Shown here piece after piece: positions 1-53,811 of a DNA stretch of 64,000 nt. Both the position numbers and the translations under genes were made by a program. The DNA is from a virus (Duplodnaviria > Heunggongvirae > Uroviricota > Caudoviricetes): IMG/VR virus record IMGVR_UViG_3300010348_000547, positions 64,566 through 128,565 of that record; one strand, 5' to 3'. Under the pieces are notes generated by a model. It searched no databases and was not told the origin of the DNA. It worked only from the letters and a program-made list of their open reading frames with translations. How positions within the stretch are numbered: the first letter of the stretch is position 1; each line of letters starts with the position of its first letter.

Positions 1-268
1 GAATGCCAGCCAGCTGCTTGACCTGAAGTCCCTTGTGATGGGTCCAACTATTAACTCTTACGAGGCTATGGGTTCTGACTTGATTGATATCTGGGATGAT
101 AAAGGTGGACAGTACTATAAGCGACGCGTAGGTCCATACTCTTGGCAAGACCAAGGCGGATTGAAGTTATGGGCTCATATGGGCAAGATGTTCGGATTGA
201 ATGCATCTAACATTGACCCTGCACAGCAGATAACAAACTTCCAAAAAGCTCAAGATATTAAACGCTAA
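1..268 (+). CDS. 3' end of an ORF that enters from upstream of the window (hypothetical protein)
   Basis: The frame is open from position 2 to the TAA at 266-268, and the stop overlaps the next start codon (ATGA). Confidence 0.4.
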   Translation, partial: NASQLLDLKSLVMGPTINSYEAMGSDLIDIWDDKGGQYYKRRVGPYSWQDQGGLKLWAHMGKMFGLNASNIDPAQQITNFQKAQDIKR

Positions 269-951
269 TGAAGGTTCTTGTATTGGTCCAGTCCATAGAC
301 AAAGATGGATACAGGGAGCTAATCCAAACGCAAAAAGAAACCTGGGATGCTATTCCGCACTCCCAGGTTAAAACTGTTTTCTATTTTCCAGACCCTCACA
401 AGGAAGGTTGGTTTGGACAAGATTTGTACGTCAGATCCAATACACATTATTATCTGATGTTTAATCATGCAATCGAGGCTATGAGACGCTGTTTAGAATA
501 TGAATGGGATTATCTATTCAAGACAGATAACTCAACGTATGTTTGCAAGCACGAACTGGTGAAAATCCTCCAGAATAAACCCAGAGAACATTACTTCGGT
601 GGACAACCTTACGAAGGACCTCCTTCACCGGATTGTAATTGGCCATTTATGTGGGGTGAGGGTATTGCTCTTTCCCGTGACCTGGTCGAATTCCTGGTTG
701 AATTTTACGGGACTCGTGTACCGGCTTGTTATTATGGTGCCGAAGATATGTTTATAGGAAGATGTTTAATGGACATGCCCGAGTGGGATAAGTCTCTCCT
801 GATATACCAATACGGGATTGCCAAAGGCAAGGTGATAAAATCTCACCATGTTTATCGCTGCAGAAAGGATGGAGCTGAACATGATTTTGATTCAACTATC
901 AAGTCCATGCGCCACATTCACCATGTACTCAGCATACTCAACAACTGGTGA
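268..951 (+). CDS. hypothetical protein (227 aa)
   Basis: Long ORF whose start overlaps the upstream stop; it lies convergent to the minus-strand block and a bidirectional terminator follows it. Confidence 0.55.
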   Translation: MKVLVLVQSIDKDGYRELIQTQKETWDAIPHSQVKTVFYFPDPHKEGWFGQDLYVRSNTHYYLMFNHAIEAMRRCLEYEWDYLFKTDNSTYVCKHELVKILQNKPREHYFGGQPYEGPPSPDCNWPFMWGEGIALSRDLVEFLVEFYGTRVPACYYGAEDMFIGRCLMDMPEWDKSLLIYQYGIAKGKVIKSHHVYRCRKDGAEHDFDSTIKSMRHIHHVLSILNNW

Positions 952-985
952 AAAAAAAAAAAGGGAACCCCGAAGGATTCCCTTT
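949..985 (-). terminator. rho-independent terminator of the minus-strand operon (probably bidirectional)
   Basis: Hairpin AAGGGAA-N10-TTCCCTT at 961-984 with a 12-nt A-run on the plus strand, i.e. a U-run after the hairpin on the minus strand. Confidence 0.6.
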
Positions 986-989
986 ACTA

Positions 990-1202
990 TTAACCATTCC
1001 GCTCAACTTGTCCGAGCAGATACGTCTCTAGCTTTTTTCCATCCAAGTCTAGTTCTTCAACGTCAACTTTGAATAGTTTAATTCTTTCTGCACTGAAACC
1101 AACAAGCACAAACTTTACAGGAGGTGTGTCAATTTCATCAACCAAGCTATAGGCGATGTGATGGACAAATACGTCTTTGTTATTCCATTTACACGTTTTC
1201 AT
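990..1202 (-). CDS. hypothetical protein (70 aa)
   Basis: ORF at the distal end of the minus-strand operon. Confidence 0.4.
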   Translation of the reverse strand: MKTCKWNNKDVFVHHIAYSLVDEIDTPPVKFVLVGFSAERIKLFKVDVEELDLDGKKLETYLLGQVERNG

Positions 1203-1584
1203 GAGGCAACAATATTGGTTTAATATTAGGTTTAAAATATCCCGGTCCCTTCAGGATCTTTCCATCTTCTCTGAAGACAGGTTTACCATCTTCACCTAAC
1301 TTAGACATATTACTGCGTTGAATCTCAGCAAAGACTTCTTCAATCTTGTGCTGCATCCCATGTTTAAGAATTGTCCCGCATAATATGTATAACTGGTCGC
1401 CTAAGGCGTCAGCAATACCTACCAGGTCCGCATCTCGACATGCTTCAATATACTCTTTATTTTCCTCATCCATGAGGTTGTAACGGAGCTCCGACTCTTT
1501 GTCCCTTAGCAATCTGGGAGAATCTCCATTCTCTACCAGAAATGCATTGTGGAATTCTTCCACTGCTTTTAATTGTTCTTTCAT
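1189..1584 (-). CDS. MazG-like nucleoside triphosphate pyrophosphohydrolase
   Basis: 131-aa all-alpha protein with EExxE/D-rich motifs typical of MazG/HisE-type pyrophosphatases (EEFHNAF...ELRYNLMDEENKEYIEA...DALGD). Confidence 0.55.
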   Translation of the reverse strand: MKEQLKAVEEFHNAFLVENGDSPRLLRDKESELRYNLMDEENKEYIEACRDADLVGIADALGDQLYILCGTILKHGMQHKIEEVFAEIQRSNMSKLGEDGKPVFREDGKILKGPGYFKPNIKPILLPHENV

Positions 1585-1732
1585 TGTATAGTTTTTGTGG
1601 TGTAAATTGTAATTCCTAACAGTTTAAAACCTGCTTTCTGTAGCTTTACATCATAAACCCAACAGTTGATATGGTGGTCGTAGGTGGGCTCTCTGAGAAC
1701 TCTAAGTTCGTAGAACCAGCCACATCCCAGAA

Positions 1733-2323
1733 TCATGCAGTCTTCAGCATCGGACGATACTGCTCCCCTATATGATCCCACATACCGTTCTTGTCGGGGT
1801 CACTTCCGTAAAAGCCACCACACGAATCTACTAATTCTTCATGAACATGTCCATGGTCACAAGTAGATTTTTTCACTAATTTGAAAGAGTAGATATCACC
1901 GGTCAGGTAACTATCATAAGTTTTCACTTCTCCTTCCAGAACACGTTTTGCTTTTGCAAGATTCTCTTCATTAATCTCACCGTATTCTTCTTTGATTTTC
2001 TCCTCTGTAACATATATCAGACCTACTTGGCCAGAATCCCACCTGCAGGAGAAACCTGTGGTGTTCATTGTGATACCGCTATGGTCATATAAATACAGGG
2101 GAAGGATTACCACGGCTTTCAAGTTCGTTCTTAAGTGCTCTTCCATTTCACTCCAGTTATTAAAATCATCTGAGTGAAAAGGGATGTTGTCATCACCTAA
2201 AGAATAACGTCTGTGAAAACAAGCCATGATTCCTAGATTGTCCCAACTACGCGGGTCATCTGGGCTTTCTTCTTGCTTAATCTGCAAGAAATGATTGTCA
2301 GCTAATTCTATTTCTCTTTCCAT
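1733..2323 (-). CDS. hypothetical protein (196 aa)
   Basis: ORF with His/Asp-rich motifs. A downstream ORF at 1581-1781 overlaps it in another frame, so a frameshift or fused gene is possible. Confidence 0.45.
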   Translation of the reverse strand: MEREIELADNHFLQIKQEESPDDPRSWDNLGIMACFHRRYSLGDDNIPFHSDDFNNWSEMEEHLRTNLKAVVILPLYLYDHSGITMNTTGFSCRWDSGQVGLIYVTEEKIKEEYGEINEENLAKAKRVLEGEVKTYDSYLTGDIYSFKLVKKSTCDHGHVHEELVDSCGGFYGSDPDKNGMWDHIGEQYRPMLKTA

Positions 2324-2652
2324 TAGTCTTCTGCATTACCTGGGTTATTAATGAACTTGTTGAATTCAGAGTCAAACGTAAAGCCTGCACCAATAAGTCT
2401 TGCTGTTACAGTTTCTAAATCAAATTCACCTGTTAATTCAAAATGAGCTTCAGCCATTTCAACTTCTTCTACACCACACTCAAGTAAGGTTTTGCCGGGC
2501 ATGTTATGTCCACCTAGTTCATCTGAACAAGCATGCGTTTCTTGCCAACACTTTTTAGTAGTAAAGACTACTATGTCATTGAAGTCATGGTCATCTCCAG
2601 ACATGACTGCAAAGATTATTTCTTCTGGTTTATATACGTATTCTTCTTCCAT
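2323..2652 (-). CDS. hypothetical protein (109 aa)
   Basis: ORF tightly packed against its neighbours with an ATGA overlap. Confidence 0.45.
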   Translation of the reverse strand: MEEEYVYKPEEIIFAVMSGDDHDFNDIVVFTTKKCWQETHACSDELGGHNMPGKTLLECGVEEVEMAEAHFELTGEFDLETVTARLIGAGFTFDSEFNKFINNPGNAED

Positions 2653-2653
2653 A

Positions 2654-2905
2654 TTATTGTATGCGTGTTAAGTGATCAACATCCCAAGCATTGTAGTAGA
2701 ACCCACCTGAACAGAATGTTACTTCATAAATACGGTTAGGTTGAACTGTTGTGTCTTGGGCAATATGCATTCTTTCACTTACTGTGTAAATACAACCAGG
2801 ACATACTTTTTGTACTCCTGCACGTCTTTGTTCATAATTAGCCTGACAGCTACGGCATCCCGTAAGTGTCAGGCTGATTAATACTATTCCTAATAGTTTC
2901 TTCAT
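2654..2905 (-). CDS. putative lipoprotein (83 aa)
   Basis: N-terminal signal peptide with a lipobox (MKKLLGIVLISLTLTGC). Confidence 0.5.
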   Translation of the reverse strand: MKKLLGIVLISLTLTGCRSCQANYEQRRAGVQKVCPGCIYTVSERMHIAQDTTVQPNRIYEVTFCSGGFYYNAWDVDHLTRIQ

Positions 2906-2906
2906 T

Positions 2907-3221
2907 TTAGTTTAAGATTACCCAGTCTTCTGCTAGCATGTCTGTTTGAGATGCTAACCAACCTGTTAAGATTTTCTTATCTGCAGTAAACATTCTGATG
3001 CTACCTAAAGCCTCAAAGTTTTCACCACCTACTTCTTTTTCTACAACCTCTCTCAAGGCTGGATCATGGATTGCTTTGGTAGGAACTATTCCTCCTGGTA
3101 ATAAGAATAAGAACATGTTCTTTCCATTCCATCCTTGACGGGCTACTCTTTTTCCGCTCTTAAGAGCTCTTAATGCTACACCAAAATCTACTTGGTCATA
3201 GTTTGCTGATTGTGCTTCCAT
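2907..3221 (-). CDS. DUF2829-like small protein (Tad2-like candidate)
   Basis: 104-aa protein with ALKSGKRVARQGWNGK near the N-terminus and WLASQTDMLAEDW near the C-terminus. I recall these as the DUF2829 signature. Confidence 0.45.
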   Translation of the reverse strand: MEAQSANYDQVDFGVALRALKSGKRVARQGWNGKNMFLFLLPGGIVPTKAIHDPALREVVEKEVGGENFEALGSIRMFTADKKILTGWLASQTDMLAEDWVILN

Positions 3222-3584
3222 TTATTTGTTTTTGATTGTTTCTTTAATAGTTGCTTCCTGTAATAGGAAATACACGATGATGTCTCCCAACTTCTCATTC
3301 ACCACTTCTTCCTTCACTTCCTTCCCTGCATCAATATCATCCAACATGTCCAGATAACTTACTAAGTGTTTCTGTAACATTCCGTGCAAAGCACGCGGCA
3401 TTGTTGTACGCTCCATCTCTGAAGCTCTACGGAAATTATGTAAGCGGTCATTACCACGAACATATTCTTTACCTTTTACAAGGATAAGCTGTTTAGTTTT
3501 CTCAATTCTTTCTGAGATAATGCGCTCTACTGTGTCCATTACAGGAGCTTTAACTGGTTTGTTTTTGCTTGCTCTTCTTGCCAT
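3222..3584 (-). CDS. hypothetical protein (120 aa)
   Basis: ORF with a basic N-terminus. Confidence 0.45.
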   Translation of the reverse strand: MARRASKNKPVKAPVMDTVERIISERIEKTKQLILVKGKEYVRGNDRLHNFRRASEMERTTMPRALHGMLQKHLVSYLDMLDDIDAGKEVKEEVVNEKLGDIIVYFLLQEATIKETIKNK

Positions 3585-4278
3585 TTTGTTCTTTTCTTTC
3601 TTGTTCGTATTTAAGTTTTCTTTTTCTGTCCGTAATCTTGTACTGCAACGACGGCATCTGGGACTTCATCAGGTTCAGGATTTTCTCTTTCTCCTCTCCC
3701 TCCACCGGCTGTTTCCTCCAGTTCAGTACCATCTTCTCATCATCAACGTAATAGTAGGCAGCGTATTCGTTACCACGGATATCGTATATCAGGAGACGGA
3801 ATAAATTGTCACTGACTACGTGTCCCTGCATTCCTCTCATCTGGATACCTGCGACGGTATTATTACCGGTCTCGCGGATACCTTTGAAGAAAAAGTTCTC
3901 AAGGAAATCTCTATCAGAACGAGTCATCATGTATGCCGTATTGTTCCACCTGAAGTGACCTTGCACATAGTCTTCTCCTTTTTTCCAAGTACGATGAATT
4001 CGCCCGGTGTTGTAACCATGTAACTGGTGACCACGCTCAGACATCTTCTCAAAGGATGTCCTGTTGTAATATGTCCACATCTTCACCTTCCCGCTGATGA
4101 TACTCTTCAGCATAGGCTTAACTGAGATAGGACAGCCTATGTTCAGGCACATGTGATGTATCTTGTCTACAAGAGCAATCATTCCCTCCAGATTCTCACC
4201 AGCATAGCAAGTGAGCATTAAATTGGTCTCTTTTTCTAGAAGAGCTTTTCTGTTGCTTAAAATGTCTAATGTATCCAT
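3550..4278 (-). CDS. hypothetical protein (242 aa)
   Basis: Long ORF. I could not place its His/Arg-rich central region in a family. Confidence 0.5.
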   Translation of the reverse strand: MDTLDILSNRKALLEKETNLMLTCYAGENLEGMIALVDKIHHMCLNIGCPISVKPMLKSIISGKVKMWTYYNRTSFEKMSERGHQLHGYNTGRIHRTWKKGEDYVQGHFRWNNTAYMMTRSDRDFLENFFFKGIRETGNNTVAGIQMRGMQGHVVSDNLFRLLIYDIRGNEYAAYYYVDDEKMVLNWRKQPVEGEEKEKILNLMKSQMPSLQYKITDRKRKLKYEQERKEQNGKKSKQKQTS

Positions 4279-4283
4279 GTTGT

Positions 4284-4502
4284 TTATCGTGCACGTTCTA
4301 ACACTCTCATTAAATTATAAGATGTAAAACCTTCAAGTTCGTCCGCTAGTTCATCGGGTATTTCAGGTTCATCTGAAAAATTACATCCTTCATACCTTGC
4401 ACCTGAACGGGTTGGTATGCATTTTTGAGTATAAGTTTTTCCCTTATAGTTAAGAACTATTGTGGCTTCTTTGCGCGTTGCTGTGATTGTAATTGTATCC
4501 AT
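4284..4502 (-). CDS. hypothetical protein (72 aa)
   Basis: ORF. Confidence 0.35.
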   Translation of the reverse strand: MDTITITATRKEATIVLNYKGKTYTQKCIPTRSGARYEGCNFSDEPEIPDELADELEGFTSYNLMRVLERAR

Positions 4503-4503
4503 G

Positions 4504-4722
4504 TTATTTGCATTTGCATCCCCAGTTAGGGTTTTCTTGATGCTCTTTTAATGTTATGGTTTTAATATCAAGGTCATCTTCAGAAGCTTCTTTCATAAAA
4601 TTAGCTCTTTGTTTTTTGTCCATGCAGTGCCATACAGCTGCCGATACATTACCGTTACATTTTCTGCAAAAGCCAATTTTTATTTCTACCTCTTCTGGTG
4701 GAAGTTCTTTAGTTTTGTCCAT
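4504..4722 (-). CDS. zinc-ribbon protein (72 aa)
   Basis: CxxC...CxC cysteine pairs (CRKCNG...CKCK). Confidence 0.4.
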   Translation of the reverse strand: MDKTKELPPEEVEIKIGFCRKCNGNVSAAVWHCMDKKQRANFMKEASEDDLDIKTITLKEHQENPNWGCKCK

Positions 4723-4784
4723 GTTGTTTAAAAATTATAAGGAGCCCTCGGTCGAAACTCCGGACTCCTTACCCATCGCCATGG

Positions 4785-5108
4785 TTAGTTTTGTGATTCT
4801 TGTCTCTTTTCTTTCAGAACTTTCACCAGCTTCTCAATTTCAAACCTCATCTCTTCAGGGATGCTGTTCATATATTCTTCAGTTGGTTTAATGAAGTTCA
4901 TGTTTTCGTCCAGAGTATTTATCTCAAGACATTTATCGCAAAGGATGATATCACCAGGACGCATTTCTACTTCCTGGTTACCATCAAATGGCAATGCTGA
5001 CTTCATCTCGAAGCCGCAGTGCCCGCATTTGTTTTCATTAGTGTTCATAACAGTTTCCACATAATTGTCCATCATAGAAAATTGCAGTAGATGGTTGCAT
5101 GGTACCAC
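4785..5108 (-). CDS. zinc-ribbon protein (107 aa)
   Basis: CGHCG...CDKC motifs. Confidence 0.4.
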   Translation of the reverse strand: MVPCNHLLQFSMMDNYVETVMNTNENKCGHCGFEMKSALPFDGNQEVEMRPGDIILCDKCLEINTLDENMNFIKPTEEYMNSIPEEMRFEIEKLVKVLKEKRQESQN

Positions 5109-6153
5109 ATTTCATACATGGCCATCCATCCTCATCCACAACTTCTGTTGGGGTTTCTACTACCGGTTCTTCAGCTTGGTGGTTCTGTTCCACTTCAGCC
5201 ATTGTCACCGGATACTTTTGAATTGCTTCTCTACCGATTTCCTCGATGATATCCGTCTTCTCCTGAACTTCCTCAGCATTATTTTGCTCAACCGCATGCC
5301 CAATACATGGTGCTACGGCTTCTTTCATTTCTGCAGATTGCTCTGCTTCCTTGATAGCATCGATAATGTTTAGCTGGTTAGGATTATCTGCGATAATGTT
5401 TTCCGGCTTAGACTCCTCAATATGTAATACAGGATTACCTACATTAAAGTCTTTGCAGATTAGATAGTGAATCATTCTTTGCTGGTCCATCCAGGTACGC
5501 GGATGTGATTTCTGAAGAGCAAAGATGATTGCATTATACATTTCCCACAAGCTATCCGTGATACCTGAGTATTCGAAACTTGGCTTTCTGAATTCCGTCT
5601 TCACAATCCCTAATTGCTCACCAGTAACAAGCTCATTCATATAATATGCACGGCCCATAAATTCTGCACGCAACTGCTCAGGTGCCAATATGTTCTTCAT
5701 TATCTCTTTGTCCATGATTAGCTGCTTAAAATACTCTTCAGCATTGTTAATCTGCTCCTCTATCTGGTCAAACACTTCCTGGTCTGCTGTTCCTGTATGC
5801 TTTCTTCCGAACGTAGCCATGTTTCCGCCAATCACTGTTGCCAATGATGCATGCACATAACCTCCGATAGAACACTTAAAGCGCATGCTTTTGTCGTATG
5901 AATTACTCCACGCGAACATCATTCCCAAATCTGGGTCATCTCCGTAGTTCAGGTGATATATTCCCTGCGCTACCTGAGCTCCCTCATTGCATCGATACAG
6001 CTCACGCTGAATCTCCAATCCTTTACTAGCAAGGACTTCACGGACTTTATCAATAATTGCTCCGTGCGATATCACAGTGTACGTATCAGTTGCCTCTGGA
6101 AGTGAAGCTTTGATTAAATACTCGTGTGTAGTTGTATTTGCTCTTTTACTCAT
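5038..6153 (-). CDS. DUF932-like phage/plasmid protein with a C-terminal zinc ribbon
   Basis: 371 aa. The N-terminal region resembles the DUF932 (TIGR03299) family, and the C-terminus has CMKCG...CGNC. Confidence 0.45.
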   Translation of the reverse strand: MSKRANTTTHEYLIKASLPEATDTYTVISHGAIIDKVREVLASKGLEIQRELYRCNEGAQVAQGIYHLNYGDDPDLGMMFAWSNSYDKSMRFKCSIGGYVHASLATVIGGNMATFGRKHTGTADQEVFDQIEEQINNAEEYFKQLIMDKEIMKNILAPEQLRAEFMGRAYYMNELVTGEQLGIVKTEFRKPSFEYSGITDSLWEMYNAIIFALQKSHPRTWMDQQRMIHYLICKDFNVGNPVLHIEESKPENIIADNPNQLNIIDAIKEAEQSAEMKEAVAPCIGHAVEQNNAEEVQEKTDIIEEIGREAIQKYPVTMAEVEQNHQAEEPVVETPTEVVDEDGWPCMKCGTMQPSTAIFYDGQLCGNCYEH

Positions 6154-6370
6154 TTGTTTTTGGTTGATTACTGTTTATAAAATCTATCCATTGTTGCCCT
6201 GTCCAATCCAATGAGGTGAGCCCAGTGGGTACCAATTGTTTTCCAATTGCTATATCCCACTTGCCTCCCCATTTAACGGGCCATCCTGCTTTTAACTGAT
6301 GATCAATTATCACTCGTCTTACCAGGCGTGAACTCCTTAACGGAGTGTTTAAAGGTGTATTCCAAATCAT
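6146..6370 (-). CDS. hypothetical protein (74 aa)
   Basis: ORF. Confidence 0.35.
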   Translation of the reverse strand: MIWNTPLNTPLRSSRLVRRVIIDHQLKAGWPVKWGGKWDIAIGKQLVPTGLTSLDWTGQQWIDFINSNQPKTNE

Positions 6371-8290
6371 TTAAAACAAGCTTAATTGTTGTTTTGGCTT
6401 TGGACAGATGTTATGTATTTCCTTGTAGATTTTTTCTAAGTAATAGCTCTCATCTACATTGTACTCTGCCCAAGGCTTCTTTACGAAATAACTCAAATCC
6501 TCCTGCATCCATTTACCGGATTCCAGTTGGATTTCCCTGCCGTCACTTTTATTCACCTTCATTATTTTGCAGCCTCTTTCAGATATATAATACCTAATCG
6601 TTTTCTGCAAAACTGTTTTCTCTATTGCTTTATTTCTTAAACAAGTTTGTTGAAATTCCCAGTCACCTTTGATTTTTACGCCTGCGCAATAATCAAGGAT
6701 GTTCCGGTTTTCCAGGAGAAATCTTTCTGGTGGAACGTCGTTGACAAAGTAATTGAAGATTGCCTTAGGGATAATGAGGAAGCTCTTGTTCTTATGAAGA
6801 GCTAAATCTTCAAACTCAAATCTACCTTTACACTTGTACTTACCAGCTTTGTTTACGGCAATGTAATTATTCACATCTCCAATAATCATCTTGGTGTACT
6901 CATCGTGTTCCAGTTGCAGGTTGGTTATCTTCTCCCATTCGGCACAGATTGCTAAATACTTTTCCTTATACTGTTCAGGAATCATCATTTCCAGACCATC
7001 TGTGTTTTGCATCAGTGGTACGGAACCTGGAATTCCTTCCGCTAACATTTCATACAGCATCATCAGACTTAGCTGTCCATTGATGGTAATCTGCATGGTG
7101 AACTGCGGGTCATACAGGAAAGAGTTTCGGTCGTTGCTTAGACCATAAGTTGAGTTAAGGATAATCTTGTACACATAATTCCGTGGGTCTTTCTTAGGGA
7201 TTTTCTTTCTCTCCTCGAAGAACCACTCATACAGTTGACAGAAATCCTTTTTAGGAAGGTGAGCAGGTGCCCAACCATTCCTGATTGCTAGATTCGGATA
7301 GAAGCTAGTCACATCCGATGTCATGATGATCATACCGTTACCTGAAACATACACTCCTGGTTCAGTGCAACCATGTACACCACCTAAGCCAAAATCAGTT
7401 TGTACCCCTTTGTATTTGAGAGAATATTTAAACCCTCCCTTGGTTACATTAGGGTTAACTACTACGGCTTTGAAATTGTCCAAGAGGTCTTGGAAAATAG
7501 GGGTTTTGAACTTCACATAGGGTACAATGATATCCTTCACCATAATGAGCGACCGGTTGGTGCGCATCTGACGTAAGTCATACTTTTGTATTCCAGTTTC
7601 CTTACTCAGGAAATGCATGAAAAGTTCTTTGGAAATTCTTGGTTCTGAAGCACTGAAGAGTCTTATCTTATACTCATCGGTCAAGGCGCCTCGCAGCGTG
7701 ATTTGTTCCTTGCTCAATTGCATAATCTTCTTAGTGGACTTCACATCATTCTTACAATAAGAGATAATCAAGTTGATTTGCTCCATTGTTTTAATACGAG
7801 TGCTGTGGTGAATTGGCATCTCTTGTATATTCTCCCAGTCCATGGAATACTGTATCCATTTCAAGGAAGACCTCTTTGCTGGGTTATCCCAGTGATTGAG
7901 CTTAAACACATCTACCTGTTCTATGGATAGATTTCTTTCACTGTATTCTGCAAACTCTCCAAACTCTTGCCGGCTGATTACCTCCTGCGCCTTCTCATAG
8001 ATGGCGGTTGCAATCTGTTCAGCGGTCATAGTGGACAATTTCTTCTTCTCCCGAAGAACAAATTCAGTAATCTGAGAGTCAAATGAAAGACCATTGAATG
8101 ACACATGCCATTCCTTTAGCTTTTTATTTTCTTCCAGAAAGGTTAAGAACTCTGGAAACTGGTCCAGGAGCTCATGGATAACGAAGACACGGGTATCGTC
8201 CGTCTTGTAATTTTCAAAGCATGCCACAAAACAATTACTGAGAGTTTCGTAGTCATGCACCCAATGGGTTCGAAGTCTCGGTTGGCTCAT
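6371..8290 (-). CDS. family B DNA polymerase (compact, 639 aa) with a 3'-5' exonuclease domain
   Basis: Exo I (HDYETL), Exo II (YCKNDV), motif A (DVTSFYPNL), motif B (KIILNSTYGLSN) and motif C (NTDGL). Confidence 0.7.
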   Translation of the reverse strand: MSQPRLRTHWVHDYETLSNCFVACFENYKTDDTRVFVIHELLDQFPEFLTFLEENKKLKEWHVSFNGLSFDSQITEFVLREKKKLSTMTAEQIATAIYEKAQEVISRQEFGEFAEYSERNLSIEQVDVFKLNHWDNPAKRSSLKWIQYSMDWENIQEMPIHHSTRIKTMEQINLIISYCKNDVKSTKKIMQLSKEQITLRGALTDEYKIRLFSASEPRISKELFMHFLSKETGIQKYDLRQMRTNRSLIMVKDIIVPYVKFKTPIFQDLLDNFKAVVVNPNVTKGGFKYSLKYKGVQTDFGLGGVHGCTEPGVYVSGNGMIIMTSDVTSFYPNLAIRNGWAPAHLPKKDFCQLYEWFFEERKKIPKKDPRNYVYKIILNSTYGLSNDRNSFLYDPQFTMQITINGQLSLMMLYEMLAEGIPGSVPLMQNTDGLEMMIPEQYKEKYLAICAEWEKITNLQLEHDEYTKMIIGDVNNYIAVNKAGKYKCKGRFEFEDLALHKNKSFLIIPKAIFNYFVNDVPPERFLLENRNILDYCAGVKIKGDWEFQQTCLRNKAIEKTVLQKTIRYYISERGCKIMKVNKSDGREIQLESGKWMQEDLSYFVKKPWAEYNVDESYYLEKIYKEIHNICPKPKQQLSLF

Positions 8291-12642: not shown

Positions 12643-14094
12643 TTACTTCATAGCCATCTTCATTACATCAGCGTTTGTCATCATGCGTTGGAACTTTTGC
12701 TTGTTACCATTTAAGATTTTCTTAACCAACACATATTTCAAGTCATCCGTAAACACGTCTTCTGTTGCCAAAGCAATCAAGCGGTTAGTGATATCCTGAG
12801 TGATTGGGTTCTCCTGAGAATAATTTACAGTGAAATTTATCAGACGAGTGGTTAATACACTAGCGATATCTGCACGATAAGCATTCCCTGTTCCAACACA
12901 CTCACGAATTTCATTCAATACAGTTGCGTCACTGTCTTTCAATAACATGTCTTTAGGAGAAATCAACTTATCCAATTTGTTGTGGATAAATGAGGTGAAC
13001 ATGGTAGTAAACTCAGGCCCTACTGAACCTTCACCAATCATTTGGATAAGAGGTAAAGTGTTAGCAAAGTCCTGAATAGAACTGATACAGTTGAAGAATG
13101 TGGTAATCGATCTTGGATTTACACGAGCACTTACTAACTCATCATGCATCAACAAGAAGTTGATACAACGACCGTCAATCTTTTGCTCTTCAGCCCAACG
13201 AGCCCATACATCTTTGTCAAACTTTAAGTTGACACTTACAAAACGAGTTCTTTGAGCTGTATCAATAGACTGTACTAAATAGTCTCCGTTGTCAGGGTTA
13301 GCTGTCAACAAGATATGCCAGTCTTTTGGTAACTTCCAAGAGATATATTCCTGTCTGTCCACCAATTCCATCACGGCTTGAATGAAACGAATGTCTGCAC
13401 GATTCCAGTCATCCAAGATTAAGAATCCACCACCTTGCTTATCTGCAATCCACTCTGGAGGACAGTAAGACATACGCTTTTGTCCAGTGAATTCGTATCC
13501 ACGCTTGATGTATTCTTCTACAGCATTTTCATCAACCCATAAGCATTGGGTATCAAATGAGCCTTCAGGAGCATCAGCAGGTACTTGAACTTCTTCCATC
13601 ACTGTTTCTTCAATTTCAACGTCCACTAATACTTCTTCCTTAATCTTTACTTCAACCGGCATGTTTACGGTTTTCATTTGGAACTTACCGTCTGGTCCCA
13701 TTACCTGTTTGTTTACAAGACGCGTTTCAGTTACAGTCTTTTCAACTTCTTTCGGTTGCTGAACAATTCTCTTAACTGTTTTTGGAACTTGCTTAGTTAC
13801 CATGTGTAATGCAACCGCAGCATGCTGAGATTTGCATAATTGGAACTGTCTGATAGGAAATCCTACCAAGTCACCTAACTCTTCAATCTGAGCTAAGTTT
13901 AACTTCACCACATTCATGGCTTTCTCATGTGCTAATTGTAACACAGAACTGGTCTTACCCAGACCCGATTCACCGATGATTTCTACAGCTACTGCAGGCT
14001 TGCCATCCTTTTGTAGGAAGCGGTTATTATCTACAATGTGAGTTAAAAATTCTTTTGTCTCATCAATGTTTAAGTGTACTTGATTGTTGCTCAT
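12643..14094 (-). CDS. AAA+ ATPase (MoxR-like)
   Basis: Walker A GESGLGKTS, Walker B LILDDWN. It sits directly upstream of the VWA protein, as in ATPase-VWA pairs. Confidence 0.65.
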   Translation of the reverse strand: MSNNQVHLNIDETKEFLTHIVDNNRFLQKDGKPAVAVEIIGESGLGKTSSVLQLAHEKAMNVVKLNLAQIEELGDLVGFPIRQFQLCKSQHAAVALHMVTKQVPKTVKRIVQQPKEVEKTVTETRLVNKQVMGPDGKFQMKTVNMPVEVKIKEEVLVDVEIEETVMEEVQVPADAPEGSFDTQCLWVDENAVEEYIKRGYEFTGQKRMSYCPPEWIADKQGGGFLILDDWNRADIRFIQAVMELVDRQEYISWKLPKDWHILLTANPDNGDYLVQSIDTAQRTRFVSVNLKFDKDVWARWAEEQKIDGRCINFLLMHDELVSARVNPRSITTFFNCISSIQDFANTLPLIQMIGEGSVGPEFTTMFTSFIHNKLDKLISPKDMLLKDSDATVLNEIRECVGTGNAYRADIASVLTTRLINFTVNYSQENPITQDITNRLIALATEDVFTDDLKYVLVKKILNGNKQKFQRMMTNADVMKMAMK

Positions 14095-14109
14095 ATTATT
14101 TTTATTGGA

Positions 14110-15315
14110 TTAGTTTAACTTTATTTGTGGGCCTATTAATGCTTCATTTATTTTAGACTGACTGCTTAGTACCCATAGCATTCGTCCTCTAGCTGGAGTC
14201 GGTGCTGAACATTCTCCATCAGTGAAATACATTAAACAAGTGTACTTATGTACATTCTCGTTATAATAATCAATCACCGGTTGGAAATCAGTCCCACCTC
14301 GTCCTTTAATCTGGATGTCCTTCTTAATGTTAAAAGGAGAGATATCACTGATAGCAGTATCACACTGTAAAACAGTTATCTCAGTTCCAGTCTTGTGTAT
14401 GTGATATAACTCATTCATACACTCTCGTAGTTCAGAAGAACTAACAGAGGCTGACGTATCGATTGCAAACAAGATGTGACGTCTCGGTTTTATTTTCAAA
14501 CCTGGATTCTCCTCATAGCGTTTGTTATACTTACGTCTTGTCTTTTTCGTATAGATTTTGGTTGATCCTCCTGCAAACCTTCTCAAGTATCCACGCCAGT
14601 CAAACTTAGGAGGCTCAACTTCAGCTAAACGCTTAAGTATCTCCGTAAATTCACCTGGAATAGTTCCACGAGATTTCTCAACTTGGTCAGCTACCTCTTT
14701 CAGAATATTTTCTGTATGAGTTCTAATCAATTTTTGAGTTGCTTCTGGAAGACCTTCCATAGCTTCCCAGCCTGAATGGTCTGGTAAATCTATAGTCTTT
14801 TGTCCCTTTCCTGTACCGATTGTTACTTGACATTGCCCAGCTGCATTAGCTGCCATCATTGCTTCAAGAGTTGGAGATGAACCATTTTTCTTAGCTTGTA
14901 TAAGCTTTTCATAATAGTACATTGTCCCCTTCTTTTCTTCAAGTTGTAGTTCAGGAAAACTAGACGGTAAAATTGGGTTGGGTGGTAAGTCATCAGTATC
15001 AATATACTGATTAATCTCACAATCCATGGCGTAGTTTGCAATTTCCTGGTCCGCCAAATGATTAAAGTCAGTCAAATGGAAAAACCCGATATGAAGTAAC
15101 TCATGTTTTAACAAACCTCTATGAGATTTCTCAGTTAGAGTACTCCAAAATTGCTCGTTGATTAGTAAATGGTAGTTGATACCATTCAATCCAACGCATG
15201 CGGTGTGAACACTATCACTCCACTGTTTGTTCAGCATTATCAGGAACATCCCGTAAAAGGGTTCCCTCAGCATCAGATCTTTCGAGGCTTTCGCCAATTG
15301 GTCTACTTTGCTCAT
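14110..15315 (-). CDS. VWA-domain protein with an N-terminal HExxH metallopeptidase-like domain (DUF2201-like)
   Basis: HELLHIGFFH motif in the N-terminal part. MIDAS motif LFAIDTSASVSS in the C-terminal half. Confidence 0.6.
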   Translation of the reverse strand: MSKVDQLAKASKDLMLREPFYGMFLIMLNKQWSDSVHTACVGLNGINYHLLINEQFWSTLTEKSHRGLLKHELLHIGFFHLTDFNHLADQEIANYAMDCEINQYIDTDDLPPNPILPSSFPELQLEEKKGTMYYYEKLIQAKKNGSSPTLEAMMAANAAGQCQVTIGTGKGQKTIDLPDHSGWEAMEGLPEATQKLIRTHTENILKEVADQVEKSRGTIPGEFTEILKRLAEVEPPKFDWRGYLRRFAGGSTKIYTKKTRRKYNKRYEENPGLKIKPRRHILFAIDTSASVSSSELRECMNELYHIHKTGTEITVLQCDTAISDISPFNIKKDIQIKGRGGTDFQPVIDYYNENVHKYTCLMYFTDGECSAPTPARGRMLWVLSSQSKINEALIGPQIKLN

Positions 15316-27250: not shown

Positions 27251-28342
27251 TCAGACATTTTCTTCAACTTGTTTTTTAGGTTTTAACTGTTTAAGGGTAC
27301 AGTCTTCTTGACCCACATCATCTCTTTTTCCTAATAGGACAGGCTGAAATAATGCTCCGCCTGGATTGTAGTACAAATATTTCACTTCTACAAAGTCACC
27401 TGGTTTCACCTTATCTGAATTAGCATACACCGTGGTGTTACCAACAGGAACAGGATTACCATTCTCATCAAATACAGCTATCCCGATTGAGGTACCGGCT
27501 GTATTAATGCTTGTAACTATACAAGTGGCTGAAGCTACAAATTTAAACTTTAATTGGTCACCACCTGAGTTAGGACGACCGCTTTTGTACATGCTATCAA
27601 TCTTTTTGAACACAATTCCTTCGCCTTTTTCGTCTAAGATTTTAGCATATAAGTCGGCTTTTTGCTGAGGTGTGTAAGCCGTTGGTACTTTTACCAAAAT
27701 TTTTCCATCTAACTTTAGCTTATCAAGAGCACCGAGGCGCTCAGCTAATGTAAGATTTGGATCTGGCATGTCAAATACATATACCGTATCACCAATTGCC
27801 TCACCATCCAAGATAAAGTCTTTAGTCCCGGCCATTAATGTAGCACCTGTAAGTGCATCACTAATCTCCACTGATAAACCTTTCTTGTTAGTTCCAATGA
27901 CGTCGGTGCCTTTTCGGATAAGACCTCTGCGGACACCGTCCATCTTCTCCTGAGCAATCCACTCAGGACTATTAATCAGTTCTTCCAAACGTGATTCATC
28001 CACATCATTTAATAGCTGAGGTAAGAACTCTGTTTTGCGAGGAGCAAATGTACCTAAGCTAAATGCAACTCCGGCACCTTCTTTCTCGCAATAACCTTTA
28101 GCCATTTTCTCATGAATAAGCTTGCCATATATGGCTGAGGCTTTTTCAAAAGTTGTTGGACTAGCTGTTTTAGTTCCTGTACTTAGAGTTGAACCTCTAC
28201 GTCCATATGCGAACTTTACTACATACTGTTTCTGTGGTGTTTCTAATAACTCAACGTTATACACCTTATCTGAACCACCTTCTCGGTAGAACAAATGTTT
28301 GCTTTCTACTAGAATCATAGCTGTATTCCTTGTTTTTGACAC
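27251..28342 (-). CDS. ATP-dependent DNA ligase
   Basis: Motif I KMDGVR, motif III LDGEAI, motif IV EGIVFKK, motif V LKFK. The N-terminal part has a WGR-like YGRRGS signature, but that call is uncertain. Confidence 0.65.
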   Translation of the reverse strand: MSKTRNTAMILVESKHLFYREGGSDKVYNVELLETPQKQYVVKFAYGRRGSTLSTGTKTASPTTFEKASAIYGKLIHEKMAKGYCEKEGAGVAFSLGTFAPRKTEFLPQLLNDVDESRLEELINSPEWIAQEKMDGVRRGLIRKGTDVIGTNKKGLSVEISDALTGATLMAGTKDFILDGEAIGDTVYVFDMPDPNLTLAERLGALDKLKLDGKILVKVPTAYTPQQKADLYAKILDEKGEGIVFKKIDSMYKSGRPNSGGDQLKFKFVASATCIVTSINTAGTSIGIAVFDENGNPVPVGNTTVYANSDKVKPGDFVEVKYLYYNPGGALFQPVLLGKRDDVGQEDCTLKQLKPKKQVEENV

Positions 28343-38667: not shown

Positions 38668-39141
38668 CTAGAAAGGCTTATCATCACTTAAGTTCTCGGG
38701 ATATTCCTCCGAGTGATTGAATACAACATCTGGGATACATGAATAGGAATCTTCTGTTGAATTACCTGATTCATCTATGCGCTCATAACGTACTTGTATA
38801 GATTCACGACGGTTGTGATTGATATCAACAACTACAGCTTTCACTAATGTTTCTTTTACTAGTAAACCTGCTTCACGCATTCTATCTTTATTCATACGCC
38901 ATGTGGGCATGTTGTCCCAAGGTATTAGTACATCATCTCCTATCTTTACATGCACTGATGGTTTTAATCCACTAAATGCATTATACAGATGAGATAAACC
39001 CATTTCTGAATCTGCTAAACCATCTACAATGGTTTCTGCGATAAGAGTGGCATGTGGGGTACCTTTCATGCACCCCACTAGCCTTTCTTTAATTTGTTCC
39101 ACAGATGTTCTTACTTCTATGTATGACTTTTTTCTTGACAT
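38668..39141 (-). CDS. hypothetical protein (157 aa)
   Basis: ORF. Confidence 0.45.
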   Translation of the reverse strand: MSRKKSYIEVRTSVEQIKERLVGCMKGTPHATLIAETIVDGLADSEMGLSHLYNAFSGLKPSVHVKIGDDVLIPWDNMPTWRMNKDRMREAGLLVKETLVKAVVVDINHNRRESIQVRYERIDESGNSTEDSYSCIPDVVFNHSEEYPENLSDDKPF

Positions 39142-40121
39142 TACTTTAAGTTAATCATGGGTGTGTTATTACCTAAGATTGTAGTTGGCAACTTACCATC
39201 CCAAGTTTGTGCTTTGATAAAGTCCACATAAATTGGAGACAATTCTTGTTTCTTCAAACGCATTGCTTCTGCTACACCTTTGGCTTCAATGATATCCGCT
39301 TGTGCTTTACCTGATGCTGTAATTACGGCTTTAGCTGAGTCACCTTTAGCTTGAGCGATTAACTTCTTGGCATTGGCATCTGCTACTAAAGCTTCTTGCA
39401 TTTTAGCTTGTGCTTCTTGAATTGCTTTGGTCTTATTTACAATAGCCTCTTTTAATGCTTCAGGAGGAACAATGTTGGTTCTCAACTGTGATACCGTAAA
39501 CCATTTAGAAACGCGCTTATTACATTCTGCTACAATAGCTGCTTCAAACTGTTCTCGGTTATTGAAGATGTCATCAACTGCCCACTTATTGGCTACGTCA
39601 TTAACAGAGCCACATACAGCATTCATTAACCAGCCCTGTTCAATTTCTTTAACGCTTACACGCAAGTTGACGAACATATCACCTACCTGGTCTGGCTTTA
39701 ATGTGTAATTGAATGTTGGTTTAATCGTTGCTGAGAATCCTCCTTTAGTAATTACACCCTGGTCTGCATACTCAATATGCTGTTGGAATGTAGGAAACTC
39801 ATATAAGTCTTCAGCCCAATTATTATACACGACCCAACCTGTTTTATAAGTATAGTCTGATACACCACGTTCATTACCGGTTAAGTTCACTTTGATACCA
39901 ATATGACCCGCATCTACACGTTCAAGACTATAAGGCTGAAATATGGCTACAATAAGAGCGCTCACCGCAATCACAATTGGCATCTTCAGCCAAGAACCTT
40001 TTACCTTTCGGATTTTATCTCCATAACGCGTTTCGGTCACTGTGAAACCGTCATTACGAGTTGCTACTAATAAACCACAGGCTAATGCTAAGCCTACTAA
40101 CAAGATAATTAATGAGATCAT
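39141..40121 (-). CDS. SPFH/band-7 domain membrane protein
   Basis: N-terminal TM anchor. The Ala/Lys/Gln-rich coiled tail (AIQEAQAKMQEALVADANAKKLIAQAKGDSAKA) is typical of HflK/C and prohibitin-like proteins. Confidence 0.55.
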   Translation of the reverse strand: MISLIILLVGLALACGLLVATRNDGFTVTETRYGDKIRKVKGSWLKMPIVIAVSALIVAIFQPYSLERVDAGHIGIKVNLTGNERGVSDYTYKTGWVVYNNWAEDLYEFPTFQQHIEYADQGVITKGGFSATIKPTFNYTLKPDQVGDMFVNLRVSVKEIEQGWLMNAVCGSVNDVANKWAVDDIFNNREQFEAAIVAECNKRVSKWFTVSQLRTNIVPPEALKEAIVNKTKAIQEAQAKMQEALVADANAKKLIAQAKGDSAKAVITASGKAQADIIEAKGVAEAMRLKKQELSPIYVDFIKAQTWDGKLPTTILGNNTPMINLK

Positions 40122-40324
40122 TCTGATTTAATTTTTAAGAGTTTAACAATTAATTTTAACAGGTAGTAACCTACCATAGCGTCAATTCCAAGCACTACTA
40201 CTAGAGCTAGAAAAGCTAACGCTCCCGGAACTATGTCACGGTTTACAACGTACTCAAAGTACGCACCATTTAGAAGCAGCAAAAAACTTAATGCTGCACC
40301 TAACTTAATCAAGTTTCTCAACAT
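40118..40324 (-). CDS. small membrane protein (68 aa), possible SPFH partner
   Basis: Two hydrophobic helices; its start overlaps the SPFH gene. Confidence 0.35.
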   Translation of the reverse strand: MLRNLIKLGAALSFLLLLNGAYFEYVVNRDIVPGALAFLALVVVLGIDAMVGYYLLKLIVKLLKIKSE

Positions 40325-40447
40325 ACTAGCGGAAAAAAAAAGATTTAAAAATGCGAAGCGTAATATTTAGCTCAACAAAACACATAAATTCTTACATGTC
40401 TTGTTGAGCATAATTCTGTTGCCAAGCTCTACTACGAGCTCCGACTC

Positions 40448-41848
40448 TTAGTCAAATTTCACGCGAGCATATCGGTCTGTCATCACTGTGTCTAACATCA
40501 GTTGTTCAGGTCCGTAAACCTTACCCTTCAGAATAGACTTCAGTATTGATGGACTGAAACCGGATACCAATCCTACGCCTTGGTCTTGAACCTGTGCAGG
40601 AGAATTACCCAAACGACCGTTCACATTCCAGAAGATAATCTCAGGCATTACATAACCAGATTGGTTATACTTTGCACGGATTACATCCAAGTTTGTAGAG
40701 CGATTGTCTCTAGTTGCTGTATTAAACTCCATATCAGAGATAATTAACAACTTAGTAGGCATTTCTTCAGAGGGAATATTCTCTCTGATTGCACTGTTCA
40801 GGATTAGGTCAAAGGAAGCCTGCAGATTAGTGGTCATTCCCCACGCTGCTGAACTCAACTGACGCATCCTTTGAGTCAATGACCCTTTCAGGTATTGCAT
40901 CTCAGGATTTGAGCTGAATGTCAGGAACGCATCCTTGAATATACCTTCGTTTCTCTCAGAGATATAAATCCCAAGAGCAACGGATACATCCATAGGTAAC
41001 CCACCGTTATCATTCATAGAGCCAGACACATCACACATCGGTAAGATGCGTTCAGTACTGCCTTCCATGTAATTAGGTAGGTTATTCCACTGAGCTTCGA
41101 TTGCGCTTGCATTTTGACCACTCTTAACTGCTTGATACAATTGATGAGGGAACAAAACAGAGGCATTAATCTTGGCTTCTCCTGAATGAACTGCATCGAT
41201 ATATGCTTTCATGCGAGCTTCATCATGCTTGAAAAATGCCGTACGGTATCTATTCATAGCAATCGAAGGTACATGAGCATAATTAATGCCACCCCATTCA
41301 CGTCTGCACATAAGCGTCTCCACTACTACAGTCTTTTTCACTAAGTATTGACGGAACTCTTTTGGAGTTACTTTCATATACTTGTGCATGGCTACAAACC
41401 ATGGACCTTTGCGTGGGAACCACTTGGCTAAAAGACCAGCGTTCTCCGATTCCTCTAATGTTGTTTTCAACCAATTAAGGTTGTTATCATTAGGTTTCTC
41501 GATAACGAACACGTCTTTCCAGTATCCGAACTCTGGCACAAGAATCATCAGCTGATCAAAGACTTCCGGATAGTTAGTACCAATATGGCTCATAACAATT
41601 TGGAAGAATCTTCTCTCACCTGCACCTCCTCGTGCGTCGCGAGCCCAAAACAATATCTTCACAGCAACTAATGAGTCTTGAGCGAATGCTCTCTCAAAGG
41701 CTGTCACGATATCTTTTGGTTGCATGTTGCGAGATGCTCCTGCTAAGAAGAACAAATCTACACATGAATTTAACGAAGTCGAGTGCGTAACTGCTCCGTT
41801 TGCTGTCACGCTATTATAGCTGCGTGTTGCGTTTACTAATCTACTCAT
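40448..41848 (-). CDS. VWA-domain protein, candidate TROVE/Ro60-like (DUF2828-type)
   Basis: 466 aa. The C-terminal half has MIDAS elements (MCDVSGSMN, a Thr in TNLQASFD, LLIISDMEFN). The N-terminal half of about 260 aa is alpha-rich. An ORF-free ncRNA island with tRNA-like RNAs lies immediately upstream. Confidence 0.45.
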   Translation of the reverse strand: MSRLVNATRSYNSVTANGAVTHSTSLNSCVDLFFLAGASRNMQPKDIVTAFERAFAQDSLVAVKILFWARDARGGAGERRFFQIVMSHIGTNYPEVFDQLMILVPEFGYWKDVFVIEKPNDNNLNWLKTTLEESENAGLLAKWFPRKGPWFVAMHKYMKVTPKEFRQYLVKKTVVVETLMCRREWGGINYAHVPSIAMNRYRTAFFKHDEARMKAYIDAVHSGEAKINASVLFPHQLYQAVKSGQNASAIEAQWNNLPNYMEGSTERILPMCDVSGSMNDNGGLPMDVSVALGIYISERNEGIFKDAFLTFSSNPEMQYLKGSLTQRMRQLSSAAWGMTTNLQASFDLILNSAIRENIPSEEMPTKLLIISDMEFNTATRDNRSTNLDVIRAKYNQSGYVMPEIIFWNVNGRLGNSPAQVQDQGVGLVSGFSPSILKSILKGKVYGPEQLMLDTVMTDRYARVKFD

Positions 41849-53716: not shown

Positions 53717-53722
53717 CAATAT

Positions 53723-53805: not shown

Positions 53806-53811
53806 CAACAC

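What the first reader, a model, noticed from the sequence alone, without database searches (positions are those of the whole stretch)
2907..3221. DUF2829-like small protein, a possible Tad2-type anti-Thoeris sponge
The 104-aa product carries ALKSGKRVARQGWNGK near the N-terminus and WLASQTDMLAEDW near the C-terminus. I recognise both as hallmarks of DUF2829. Members of that family (Tad2) were shown to sequester the Thoeris signalling molecule gcADPR. It sits among small early genes (lipoprotein, MazG-like), as expected for an anti-defence gene.
Basis: partly seen in the sequence, partly recalled or inferred. Interest (0 to 1): 0.55.

Follow-up and report, generated by a model that had tools for sequence, protein, structure and literature searches.

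The report
Tad2-family immune-signal sponge gene in phage
This small gene in an uncultivated large phage is a clear member of the known Tad2 (DUF2829) family of proteins that soak up bacterial Thoeris alarm molecules, so it is an ordinary though correctly spotted anti-defence gene.

Summary
The 104-aa ORF exists at 2907-3221, on the minus strand, and carries both quoted motifs. It matches Pfam PF11195 (Tad2-like) over the whole profile (E 8.4e-22, 77.9 bits, cut-off 25). By sequence it also matches every solved Tad2 (SptTad2 1.9e-20, HgmTad2/AcrIIA7 2.5e-18, ModTad2, SPO1 Tad2).

An AlphaFold2 model (pLDDT 74) finds only Tad2 structures in the PDB: the top 22 hits have probability 1.00, and the next hit has E 0.63.

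All residues that contact gcADPR in SPO1 Tad2 and HgmTad2 are present (W31, N32, G33, M77, T79, D81, W88, S91, T93, D94). They are invariant or nearly so in 120 clade relatives. Synonymous sites are saturated while pN is only 0.11-0.14.

In contrast, the mutationally validated cGG-pocket residues of HgmTad2 (R31, S47, F70, N85) are replaced by L, A, A, T. The insertion is 32 aa, against 35-41 aa in cyclic-dinucleotide binders.

Best reading: a homotetrameric sponge for ADPR-derived Thoeris signals, most likely 3'cADPR, in a phage that probably infects Bacteroidota. It is a new member of a known kind. Binding and Thoeris rescue are untested.

The parts
2907..3221 (-). Tad2-like (DUF2829) gene, 104 aa, ATG start and TAA stop. 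The Pfam domain covers residues 12-103 (window 2913-3188).
   Evidence: ORF list and translation; PF11195 E 8.4e-22; PDB sequence hits to SptTad2, HgmTad2, ModTad2 and SPO1 Tad2; Foldseek top 22 hits all Tad2.
3123..3134 (-). GWNG loop (G30-W31-N32-G33). W and N correspond to SPO1 Tad2 W25/N26 and HgmTad2 W21/N22, which stack on gcADPR and bind its diphosphate.
   Evidence: Alignments; 120/120 conserved in the clade; residue roles from 10.1101/2023.05.01.538930 and PMC10680739; coordinates checked.
2940..2960 (-). W88-L-A-S91-Q-T93-D94 segment, equal to SPO1 Tad2 W73, S76, T78, D79 and HgmTad2 W87, S90, T92, D93. This is the second half of the gcADPR pocket.
   Evidence: In HgmTad2 the W21A/N22A and S90A/T92A/D93A mutants lose gcADPR binding (PMC10680739).
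3003..3098 (-). Clade-specific insertion between beta2 and beta5 (residues P42-G73, 32 aa). It occupies the position of the cyclic-dinucleotide pocket of HgmTad2/SptTad2 but has different residues: L41, A50, A71, T86 in place of R31, S47, F70, N85.
   Evidence: Insertion lengths are 24 aa in SPO1 Tad2 and 35-41 aa in CDN binders (PMC10680739). Mean top-residue frequency is 0.88 in 86 clade members, against 0.95 for the C-terminal core.
3222..3224 (-). Stop codon (TAA) of the upstream 120-aa gene (3222-3584), which directly abuts the Tad2 ATG. Downstream, the lipoprotein ATG (2905) follows the Tad2 stop after 1 nt. The genes are tightly packed and co-oriented, and there is no Shine-Dalgarno motif.
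   Evidence: Sequence junctions AAACAAATAA|ATGGAA and CTAAAATGAAG.

Best explanation
The gene encodes a Tad2-family sponge. The inferred mechanism follows solved homologues. The ~12-kDa protein assembles into a homotetramer made of two V-shaped dimers. Each of two pockets between non-dimeric protomers encloses one molecule of the TIR-made Thoeris signal, most likely 1''-3' gcADPR (3'cADPR) and its 1''-2' isomer. The ligand is held by the GWNG loop (W31, N32), by M77/T79/D81 on the strand after the insertion, and by W88/S91/T93/D94. Sequestering the signal, without degrading it, would keep the host effector (ThsA NADase or equivalent) inactive and let the phage replicate. Shown here: family membership, fold, and complete conservation of the ADPR-signal pocket under strong purifying selection. 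Inferred: tetramer formation, which ligand is bound, and the in vivo effect. This member probably does NOT share the high-affinity c-di-GMP/cGAMP pocket of its closest solved relatives, HgmTad2 and SptTad2.
For: PF11195 is matched end to end at 77.9 bits against a cut-off of 25. phmmer finds all solved Tad2s at 1.9e-20 to 3.9e-14. The AF2 model has the expected alpha1 plus antiparallel sheet and matches only Tad2 chains, at E 4.7e-7 to 1.5e-4 and probability 1.00. All 12 HgmTad2 and all 10 SPO1 Tad2 gcADPR-contact positions are identical or conservatively replaced, and the key W, N, G, W, S, T, D are invariant or nearly so (117-120 of 120) in clade members (residue roles). pN is 0.11-0.14 against pS 0.75-0.95 versus 80-86%-identical relatives. 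Li et al. report that only about 1% of Tad2s are predicted to be defective in gcADPR binding, and most tested homologues inhibit type I Thoeris. In relatives the gene sits among entirely different neighbours: 0 of 15 flanking proteins are shared, as is typical of accessory anti-defence genes. Against cGG binding: R31 to L, S47 to A, F70 to A and N85 to T, where S47A, F70A and R31A/N85A abolish binding in HgmTad2. The insertion is also only 32 aa.
Against: There is no biochemical or genetic test. Tad2 specificity is not predictable from sequence: ModTad2 keeps the same pocket architecture yet binds His-ADPR and not 3'cADPR, Tad2_71 blocks types I, II and IV, and others block CBASS or Pycsar. 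The host is unknown, so it is unknown whether it carries Thoeris. The model is a monomer of moderate confidence (pLDDT 74, pTM 0.56), and alignment within the insertion is uncertain, so the mapping of cGG-pocket residues S47 and F70 could be off by a few positions.
Confidence: 0.8

Rival explanations
1. It is a Tad2-fold sponge whose main or additional target is a different immune signal: His-ADPR (type II Thoeris), N7-cADPR (type IV Thoeris), or a nucleotide bound in a second pocket formed by the conserved clade-specific insertion (for example cUMP/cCMP of Pycsar, or a CBASS cyclic dinucleotide other than cGG).
For: Hadary et al. 2025 found Tad2 homologues that inhibit CBASS, Pycsar and Thoeris types I, II and IV, many of them inhibiting more than one system. 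The dimer-internal interface binds cGG in HgmTad2 and cUMP in MoTad2. The query's 32-aa insertion is almost as conserved as the core (0.88 against 0.95) and retains conserved charged residues K49, D53, R57, E61, E70 and R76. Position 86 is T, as in ModTad2.
Against: The canonical pocket has the S-Q-T-D signature of the 3'cADPR binders, not the S-V-S-D of ModTad2. The validated cGG residues are absent and the insertion is shorter than in known CDN binders. Nothing positively identifies a second pocket.
Confidence: 0.3
2. It acts as an AcrIIA7-type anti-CRISPR. The head-less tetramer would bind tracrRNA in a basic groove and prevent Cas9 RNP assembly.
For: The query is about 46% identical to HgmTad2 (= meAcrIIA7). 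It lacks an N-terminal head domain, like the forms active in vitro. Four of the five basic groove residues (K58, K71, K93, R101 of pdAcrIIA7) are conserved as K21, K34, K49, R57. Bacteroidota often carry type II-C Cas9 (own knowledge, not tested here).
Against: K66, whose mutation abolishes RNA binding, is Q29 in the query. K21 and K34 are also present in SPO1 Tad2 and ModTad2, so they do not discriminate. Li et al. could not reproduce any Cas9 inhibition by HgmTad2 or other Tad2s, in vitro or in vivo. The reported activity needs micromolar protein and pre-incubation with sgRNA.
Confidence: 0.08
3. It is a DUF2829 protein with a role unrelated to defence, or a decayed non-functional copy.
For: Many phage annotations still read 'hypothetical' or 'DUF2829', and no experiment exists for this clade.
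Against: The ORF is intact. Purifying selection is very strong at saturated synonymous divergence. The ligand pocket is invariant across 120 relatives. The exact protein recurs on 8 independent contigs.
Confidence: 0.03

Closest known systems
SptTad2 (Sphingobacterium thalpophilum; PDB 8WJD) and HgmTad2 = AcrIIA7 (Bacteroides-phage/human gut metagenome; PDB 8KBI-8KBM, 8WJC)
   Same: These are the best sequence matches (E 1.9e-20 and 2.5e-18, 46-47% identity) and the best structural matches. The gcADPR pocket is identical (W/N, W, S, T, D). They share the one-residue-longer 'xGW' beta-turn before WLASQTD. The source is likely a Bacteroidota phage in each case.
   Different: The insertion is 32 aa rather than 35-41. 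The cGG/cGAMP pocket residues R31, S47, F70, T71 and N85 are replaced by L, A, A, L, T in the whole clade, so high-affinity c-di-GMP binding is not expected.
SPO1 Tad2 (gp34.65; PDB 8SME/8SMF/8SMG), the founding member
   Same: Same family and fold. All ten gcADPR-contact positions align: W25, N26, T65, D67, W73, S76, T78 and D79 are identical, I63 is M, and H71 is T. Similar size and single-domain architecture.
   Different: About 49% identity over the aligned region. The query has a longer and differently structured insertion, and it lacks the F44 stacking that occludes the second pocket in SPO1 Tad2.
ModTad2/MoTad2 (Myroides odoratus prophage; PDB 8V3E, 9EIB), a His-ADPR and cUMP sponge
   Same: Same fold (Foldseek E 6.3e-7, TMt 0.69), a Bacteroidota origin, and T at the position of query T86.
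   Different: ModTad2 has S-V-S-D and T-W-T-P where the query has S-Q-T-D and G-W-L-A, and its insertion is shorter. ModTad2 does not inhibit type I Thoeris.

Membership tests
Tad2 / DUF2829 (Pfam PF11195) | Significant full-length match to the family HMM, above the curated threshold | tested here: met
   E 8.4e-22, 77.9 bits against gathering score 25; profile positions 2-73 of 73, residues 12-103.
Tad2 / DUF2829 (Pfam PF11195) | [quoted passage not shown] | tested here: met
   AF2 model elements H13-21, E25-28, E36-41 ... E74-81, E84-89, H92-96, E100-103, pLDDT 74. Foldseek against the PDB: ranks 1-22 are all Tad2 chains at probability 1.00, and the next hit has E 0.63.
Tad2 / DUF2829 (Pfam PF11195) | gcADPR pocket residues (SPO1 W25, N26, T65, D67, W73, S76, T78, D79; HgmTad2 W21, N22, S90, T92, D93) | tested here: met
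   Query W31, N32, T79, D81, W88, S91, T93, D94. Each is conserved in 117-120 of 120 clade members.
Tad2 / DUF2829 (Pfam PF11195) | Homotetramer with two inter-protomer ligand pockets | not testable with these tools
   Only a monomer could be modelled; this needs SEC-MALS, crystallography or a multimer prediction.
Tad2 / DUF2829 (Pfam PF11195) | Binds and sequesters 1''-3' gcADPR and rescues phage from type I Thoeris | not testable with these tools
   Needs biochemistry or plaque assays.
Tad2 / DUF2829 (Pfam PF11195) | Small protein encoded by a phage or prophage | tested here: met
   104 aa. The window has a DNA polymerase, primase, helicases, ligase and 23 tRNAs. The exact protein lies on 117-128 kb viral-like contigs.
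Dual Thoeris/CBASS Tad2 (HgmTad2/SptTad2/SaTad2 type) | Long insertion domain (35-41 aa) between beta2 and beta5 | tested here: not met
   32 aa (P42-G73).
Dual Thoeris/CBASS Tad2 (HgmTad2/SptTad2/SaTad2 type) | cGG/cGAMP-contact residues R31, S47, F70, N85 (the S47A, F70A and R31A/N85A mutants lose binding) | tested here: not met
   Query L41, A50, A71, T86. In the clade these are L 120/120, A 108/120, A 120/120, T 120/120. Caveat: alignment inside the insertion is less certain.
AcrIIA7 (tracrRNA-hijacking anti-CRISPR) | Basic groove residues K58, K66, K71, K93, R101 (pdAcrIIA7 numbering) | tested here: inconclusive
   Query K21, Q29, K34, K49, R57: four of five are kept and K66 is lost. Two of the kept residues are also present in SPO1 Tad2 and ModTad2.
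AcrIIA7 (tracrRNA-hijacking anti-CRISPR) | No N-terminal head domain (required for activity in vitro) | tested here: met
   Only 10-11 residues precede the domain.
AcrIIA7 (tracrRNA-hijacking anti-CRISPR) | Binds tracrRNA and inhibits Cas9 | not testable with these tools
   The activity itself is disputed.

The most novel reading that the evidence does not exclude
The query belongs to a large, strongly conserved, apparently uncharacterised Tad2 sub-clade from putatively Bacteroidota phages. Its mid-length insertion (LLPxGxVPTKAIHDPALRxVIExEVGGExFEALGSIRM) would form a second ligand pocket with a specificity different from the known cGG/cGAMP pocket of HgmTad2 and the cUMP pocket of MoTad2. One small protein would then neutralise Thoeris plus a second, possibly still unassigned, nucleotide signal.
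Probability: 0.2. Interest if true: 0.45.

Novelty: new member of a known kind. Interest (0 to 1): 0.22.

Why it matters
The result adds one well-supported anti-Thoeris sponge candidate to an uncultivated ~120-kb, tRNA-rich phage lineage that probably infects Bacteroidota. It implies that the host population uses TIR/Thoeris-type signalling. It also defines a Tad2 sub-clade of more than 100 sequences at 74-96% identity that keeps the gcADPR pocket but has replaced every validated c-di-GMP-pocket residue. That sub-clade is a convenient natural test of how the Tad2 insertion sets second-ligand specificity. It does not change what is known about the family.

Tried and rejected
Searches that found nothing useful:
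- A megablast of window 1-8000 against GenBank phages found nothing. The nearest cultured relatives of the DNA polymerase are only 34-37% identical, so no named phage or host could be assigned.
- I looked for this clade among experimentally tested Tad2s. No supplementary text is held for Hadary et al. or Li et al.. A full-text search for the motifs returned nothing. The Yirmiya homologue table holds WLASQTDML 69 times but never FEALGSIRM, though that file is truncated.
- Synteny as functional evidence failed: none of 15 flanking window proteins is found next to the 56-86%-identical homologues.
- I tested whether the N-terminal modules fused to many clade members are encoded separately in the window. 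They are not, and they have no Pfam match.
- No paralogue of the gene exists in the window.
- The promoter scan of 900-6400 was no better than shuffled sequence (12 sites against 13.4 expected), so no promoter is claimed.

Technical dead end:
- A first MAFFT L-INS-i run on 272 sequences timed out. I replaced it with hmmalign.

Readings considered and rejected:
- A cGG-binding, HgmTad2-like dual sponge is rejected on residues and insertion length.
- A pseudogene or chance ORF is rejected on selection and HMM statistics.

Full report
**Observation**

The ORF listing shows one ATG-initiated ORF of 104 codons at 2907..3221 on the minus strand. The plus-strand reading of the same interval is full of stops. 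The product is MEAQSANYDQVDFGVALRALKSGKRVARQGWNGKNMFLFLLPGGIVPTKAIHDPALREVVEKEVGGENFEALGSIRMFTADKKILTGWLASQTDMLAEDWVILN.

The ATG directly abuts the TAA of the upstream 120-aa gene (3222-3584). The downstream 83-aa gene starts 1 nt after the Tad2 stop. That downstream product begins MKKLLGIVLISLTLTGC, a lipoprotein signal. ORF 1189-1584 is MazG-like (PF01503 1.7e-12; phrog_671 2.6e-38).

**Family membership**

- hmmscan against Pfam gives a single hit, PF11195 'Tad2-like', at E 8.4e-22 and 77.9 bits (gathering score 25). It covers profile positions 2-73 of 73.
- PHROGs gives only 'unknown function' families 1048 and 872.
- phmmer against PDB sequences finds exactly the solved Tad2 proteins: SptTad2 8WJD (1.9e-20), HgmTad2/AcrIIA7 8KBI (2.5e-18), pdAcrIIA7 9KZR, ModTad2 9EIB/8V3E (about 5e-16) and SPO1 Tad2 8SME/8WJE (about 4e-14).
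- An AlphaFold2 model was built from 86 clade sequences (alignment A2). It has mean pLDDT 74.4 and pTM 0.56, and shows an N-terminal helix followed by an antiparallel sheet. This confidence is moderate, as expected for one chain of a protein expected to be an obligate tetramer modelled from a shallow alignment.
- Foldseek against the PDB returns Tad2 chains at ranks 1-22 (E 4.7e-7 to 1.5e-4, probability 1.00, TM 0.5-0.7). The first non-Tad2 hit has E 0.63.

**Ligand sites**

Crystallography of SPO1 Tad2 assigns 1''-3' gcADPR contacts to W25, N26, I63, T65, D67, H71, W73, S76, T78 and D79 (10.1101/2023.05.01.538930). For HgmTad2 the contacts are W21, N22, G23, M76, A78, T82, V84, W87, L88, S90, T92 and D93, and the W21A/N22A and S90A/T92A/D93A mutants lose binding (PMC10680739).

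The alignments (A1; the hmmalign of 272 sequences) map these onto query W31, N32, G33, M77, T79, D81, K83, L85, T86, W88, L89, S91, T93 and D94. The key W/N/G/W/D are 120/120 in the clade, S91 is 117/120 and T93 is 119/120.

HgmTad2 and SptTad2 also bind cGG/cGAMP through the insertion between beta2 and beta5. The residues are R31, P32, D34, L36, K46, S47, F70, T71 and N85, and S47A, F70A and R31A/N85A abolish binding. The insertions are 35-41 aa, against 24 aa in SPO1 Tad2.

In the query these positions are L41, P42, G44, V46, K49, A50, A71, L72 and T86. L, A(71) and T are fixed in 120/120 clade members and A50 in 108/120. The insertion is 32 aa.

The query therefore keeps the ADPR-signal pocket but not the known c-di-GMP pocket. 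The caveat is that alignment inside the insertion is less secure than in the core.

The insertion itself is well conserved in the clade. Its mean top-residue frequency is 0.88, against 0.95 for the C-terminal core. A different second pocket is therefore not excluded.

**Selection and distribution**

- The exact protein occurs on 8 contigs, including JGI 3300009716 Ga0116191_1000031 (128.5 kb) and SRR5007461 (116.6 kb), with the same neighbourhood.
- 2781 proteins match at E <= 1e-5. In the exhaustive search of 1.84 billion cluster representatives, 4772 match at E <= 1e-3 and 29 at <= 1e-30.
- Against nine homologous genes (63-86% amino-acid identity), pS is 0.75-0.98, which is saturated. For the six relatives at 81-86% identity, pN is 0.11-0.14 and pS 0.75-0.95. 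This indicates strong purifying selection.
- None of 15 flanking window proteins is detectable next to those homologues. The gene is thus embedded in otherwise unrelated genomic contexts, as is usual for accessory anti-defence genes.

**Genome and host**

The window is part of a large phage genome.

- It encodes a family-B-type DNA polymerase (6371-8290), a primase, DnaB-like and Dda-like helicases, a ligase and an exonuclease, all on the minus strand.
- It carries a 23-tRNA cluster at 53645-56265.
- GC content is about 39%.
- It has no near-identical GenBank phage, and its polymerase is at most 37% identical to cultured phages.

The host is most plausibly a member of the Bacteroidota, for three reasons.

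- The closest copies in binned genomes are in Flavobacteriaceae (85%), 'Bacteroidetes' (85%), Chitinophagaceae (80%), Bacteroidia (72%) and Muribaculaceae (56-60%, including a 3.6-Mb chromosome). The flanks examined for two of the closest (the Flavobacteriaceae and Chitinophagaceae contigs) look phage-like, so this is indirect evidence.
- Shine-Dalgarno motifs are depleted (5 of 69 genes, against 13.7% of random windows) and the leaders are 45% A.
- The nearest solved relatives come from Sphingobacterium, Bacteroides-phage and Myroides sources.

**Mechanism proposed**

By homology, the protein forms a tetramer with two pockets between non-dimeric protomers. Each pocket encloses gcADPR through the two tryptophans and the N/S/T/D polar network. 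This withholds the signal from the Thoeris effector.

Shown here: family, fold, pocket residues and constraint. Inferred: oligomeric state, ligand identity and phenotype.

Recent work shows that the family is versatile. ModTad2 binds His-ADPR and cUMP. Tad2_71 blocks types I, II and IV Thoeris. Other members block CBASS (PMC12393519; 10.1101/2024.01.03.573942). The S-Q-T-D signature matches the 3'cADPR binders rather than ModTad2 (S-V-S-D), so 3'cADPR is the most likely ligand, but this is not certain.

**Anti-CRISPR rival**

HgmTad2 was first named AcrIIA7. Li et al. found no Cas9 inhibition. Lee & Park 2026 (PMC13133391) report that head-less AcrIIA7 binds tracrRNA through K58, K66, K71, K93 and R101.

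The query has K21, Q29, K34, K49 and R57 at these positions. That is four of five, but two of them are also present in SPO1 Tad2 and ModTad2, and the critical K66 is lost. I rate this reading as possible but unlikely.

**Verdict**

The gene is a new member of the well-known Tad2 family in an uncultivated phage. The one refinement is that it, and its whole sub-clade, lacks the cGG-pocket residues of its closest solved relatives while keeping a conserved mid-length insertion of unknown significance. Interest is low to moderate.

Noticed in passing
window 53645-56265 (+): A compact cluster of 23 tRNA genes covering 19 amino acids, with two each for Ser, Leu, Met and Arg. GC rises locally to 48%.
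   Followed up: no
homologues P0081, P0047, P0088, P0119 and others (169-aa forms); L010:4812-5279: 102 of the 267 homologues retrieved in the two searches carry N-terminal extensions. A recurrent ~70-aa module ('KAKPMNRxEYNxYRGWELP...GYISWSPxDVF') is fused in front of the Tad2 domain. It has no Pfam match and is not encoded in the window. The same module appears fused to another Tad2 in the Yirmiya et al. homologue table. The extension of P0004 looks like a degenerate second DUF2829 repeat. A link to the inhibitory 'head' domain of pdAcrIIA7 is untested.
   Followed up: partly
window 960-985 (-): A very strong intrinsic terminator (11-bp stem, GC-rich, followed by 12 T). It closes the long minus-strand gene block where it converges on the plus-strand gene 268-951.
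   Followed up: partly
window 39141-41848 (-): A 466-aa DUF2828 + DUF7788 protein (phrog_850 'RNA-binding protein', E 1e-140) lies close to (about 330 nt from) a 326-aa SPFH/Band-7 protein. This is an unusual pair for a phage, and its function is unknown.
   Followed up: no
window 12643-15315 (-): A DUF2201 metallopeptidase/VWA-like protein (14110-15315; PHROGs labels it 'HNH endonuclease') lies beside an ATPase (12643-14094). This resembles a MoxR/VWA-type pair inside the replication module.
   Followed up: no
window, genome-wide: Shine-Dalgarno motifs are depleted upstream of genes (5 of 69, below random expectation). Leaders are 45% A and 11% G, which suggests Bacteroidota-style translation initiation and hence the host phylum.
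   Followed up: partly
window 1-268 (+) and L001/L002 8954-12315: The window starts inside the 3' end of a 1973-aa gene that is seen at greater length, though still cut by the locus end, on the 117-128 kb contigs. It has no Pfam hit on record.
   Followed up: no
window 27251-28342 (-): An ATP-dependent ligase with an N-terminal WGR domain, and a weak RNA-ligase match just below Pfam's threshold. A similar WGR-ligase sits near the Tad2 homologue in the unrelated phage locus L090.
   Followed up: no
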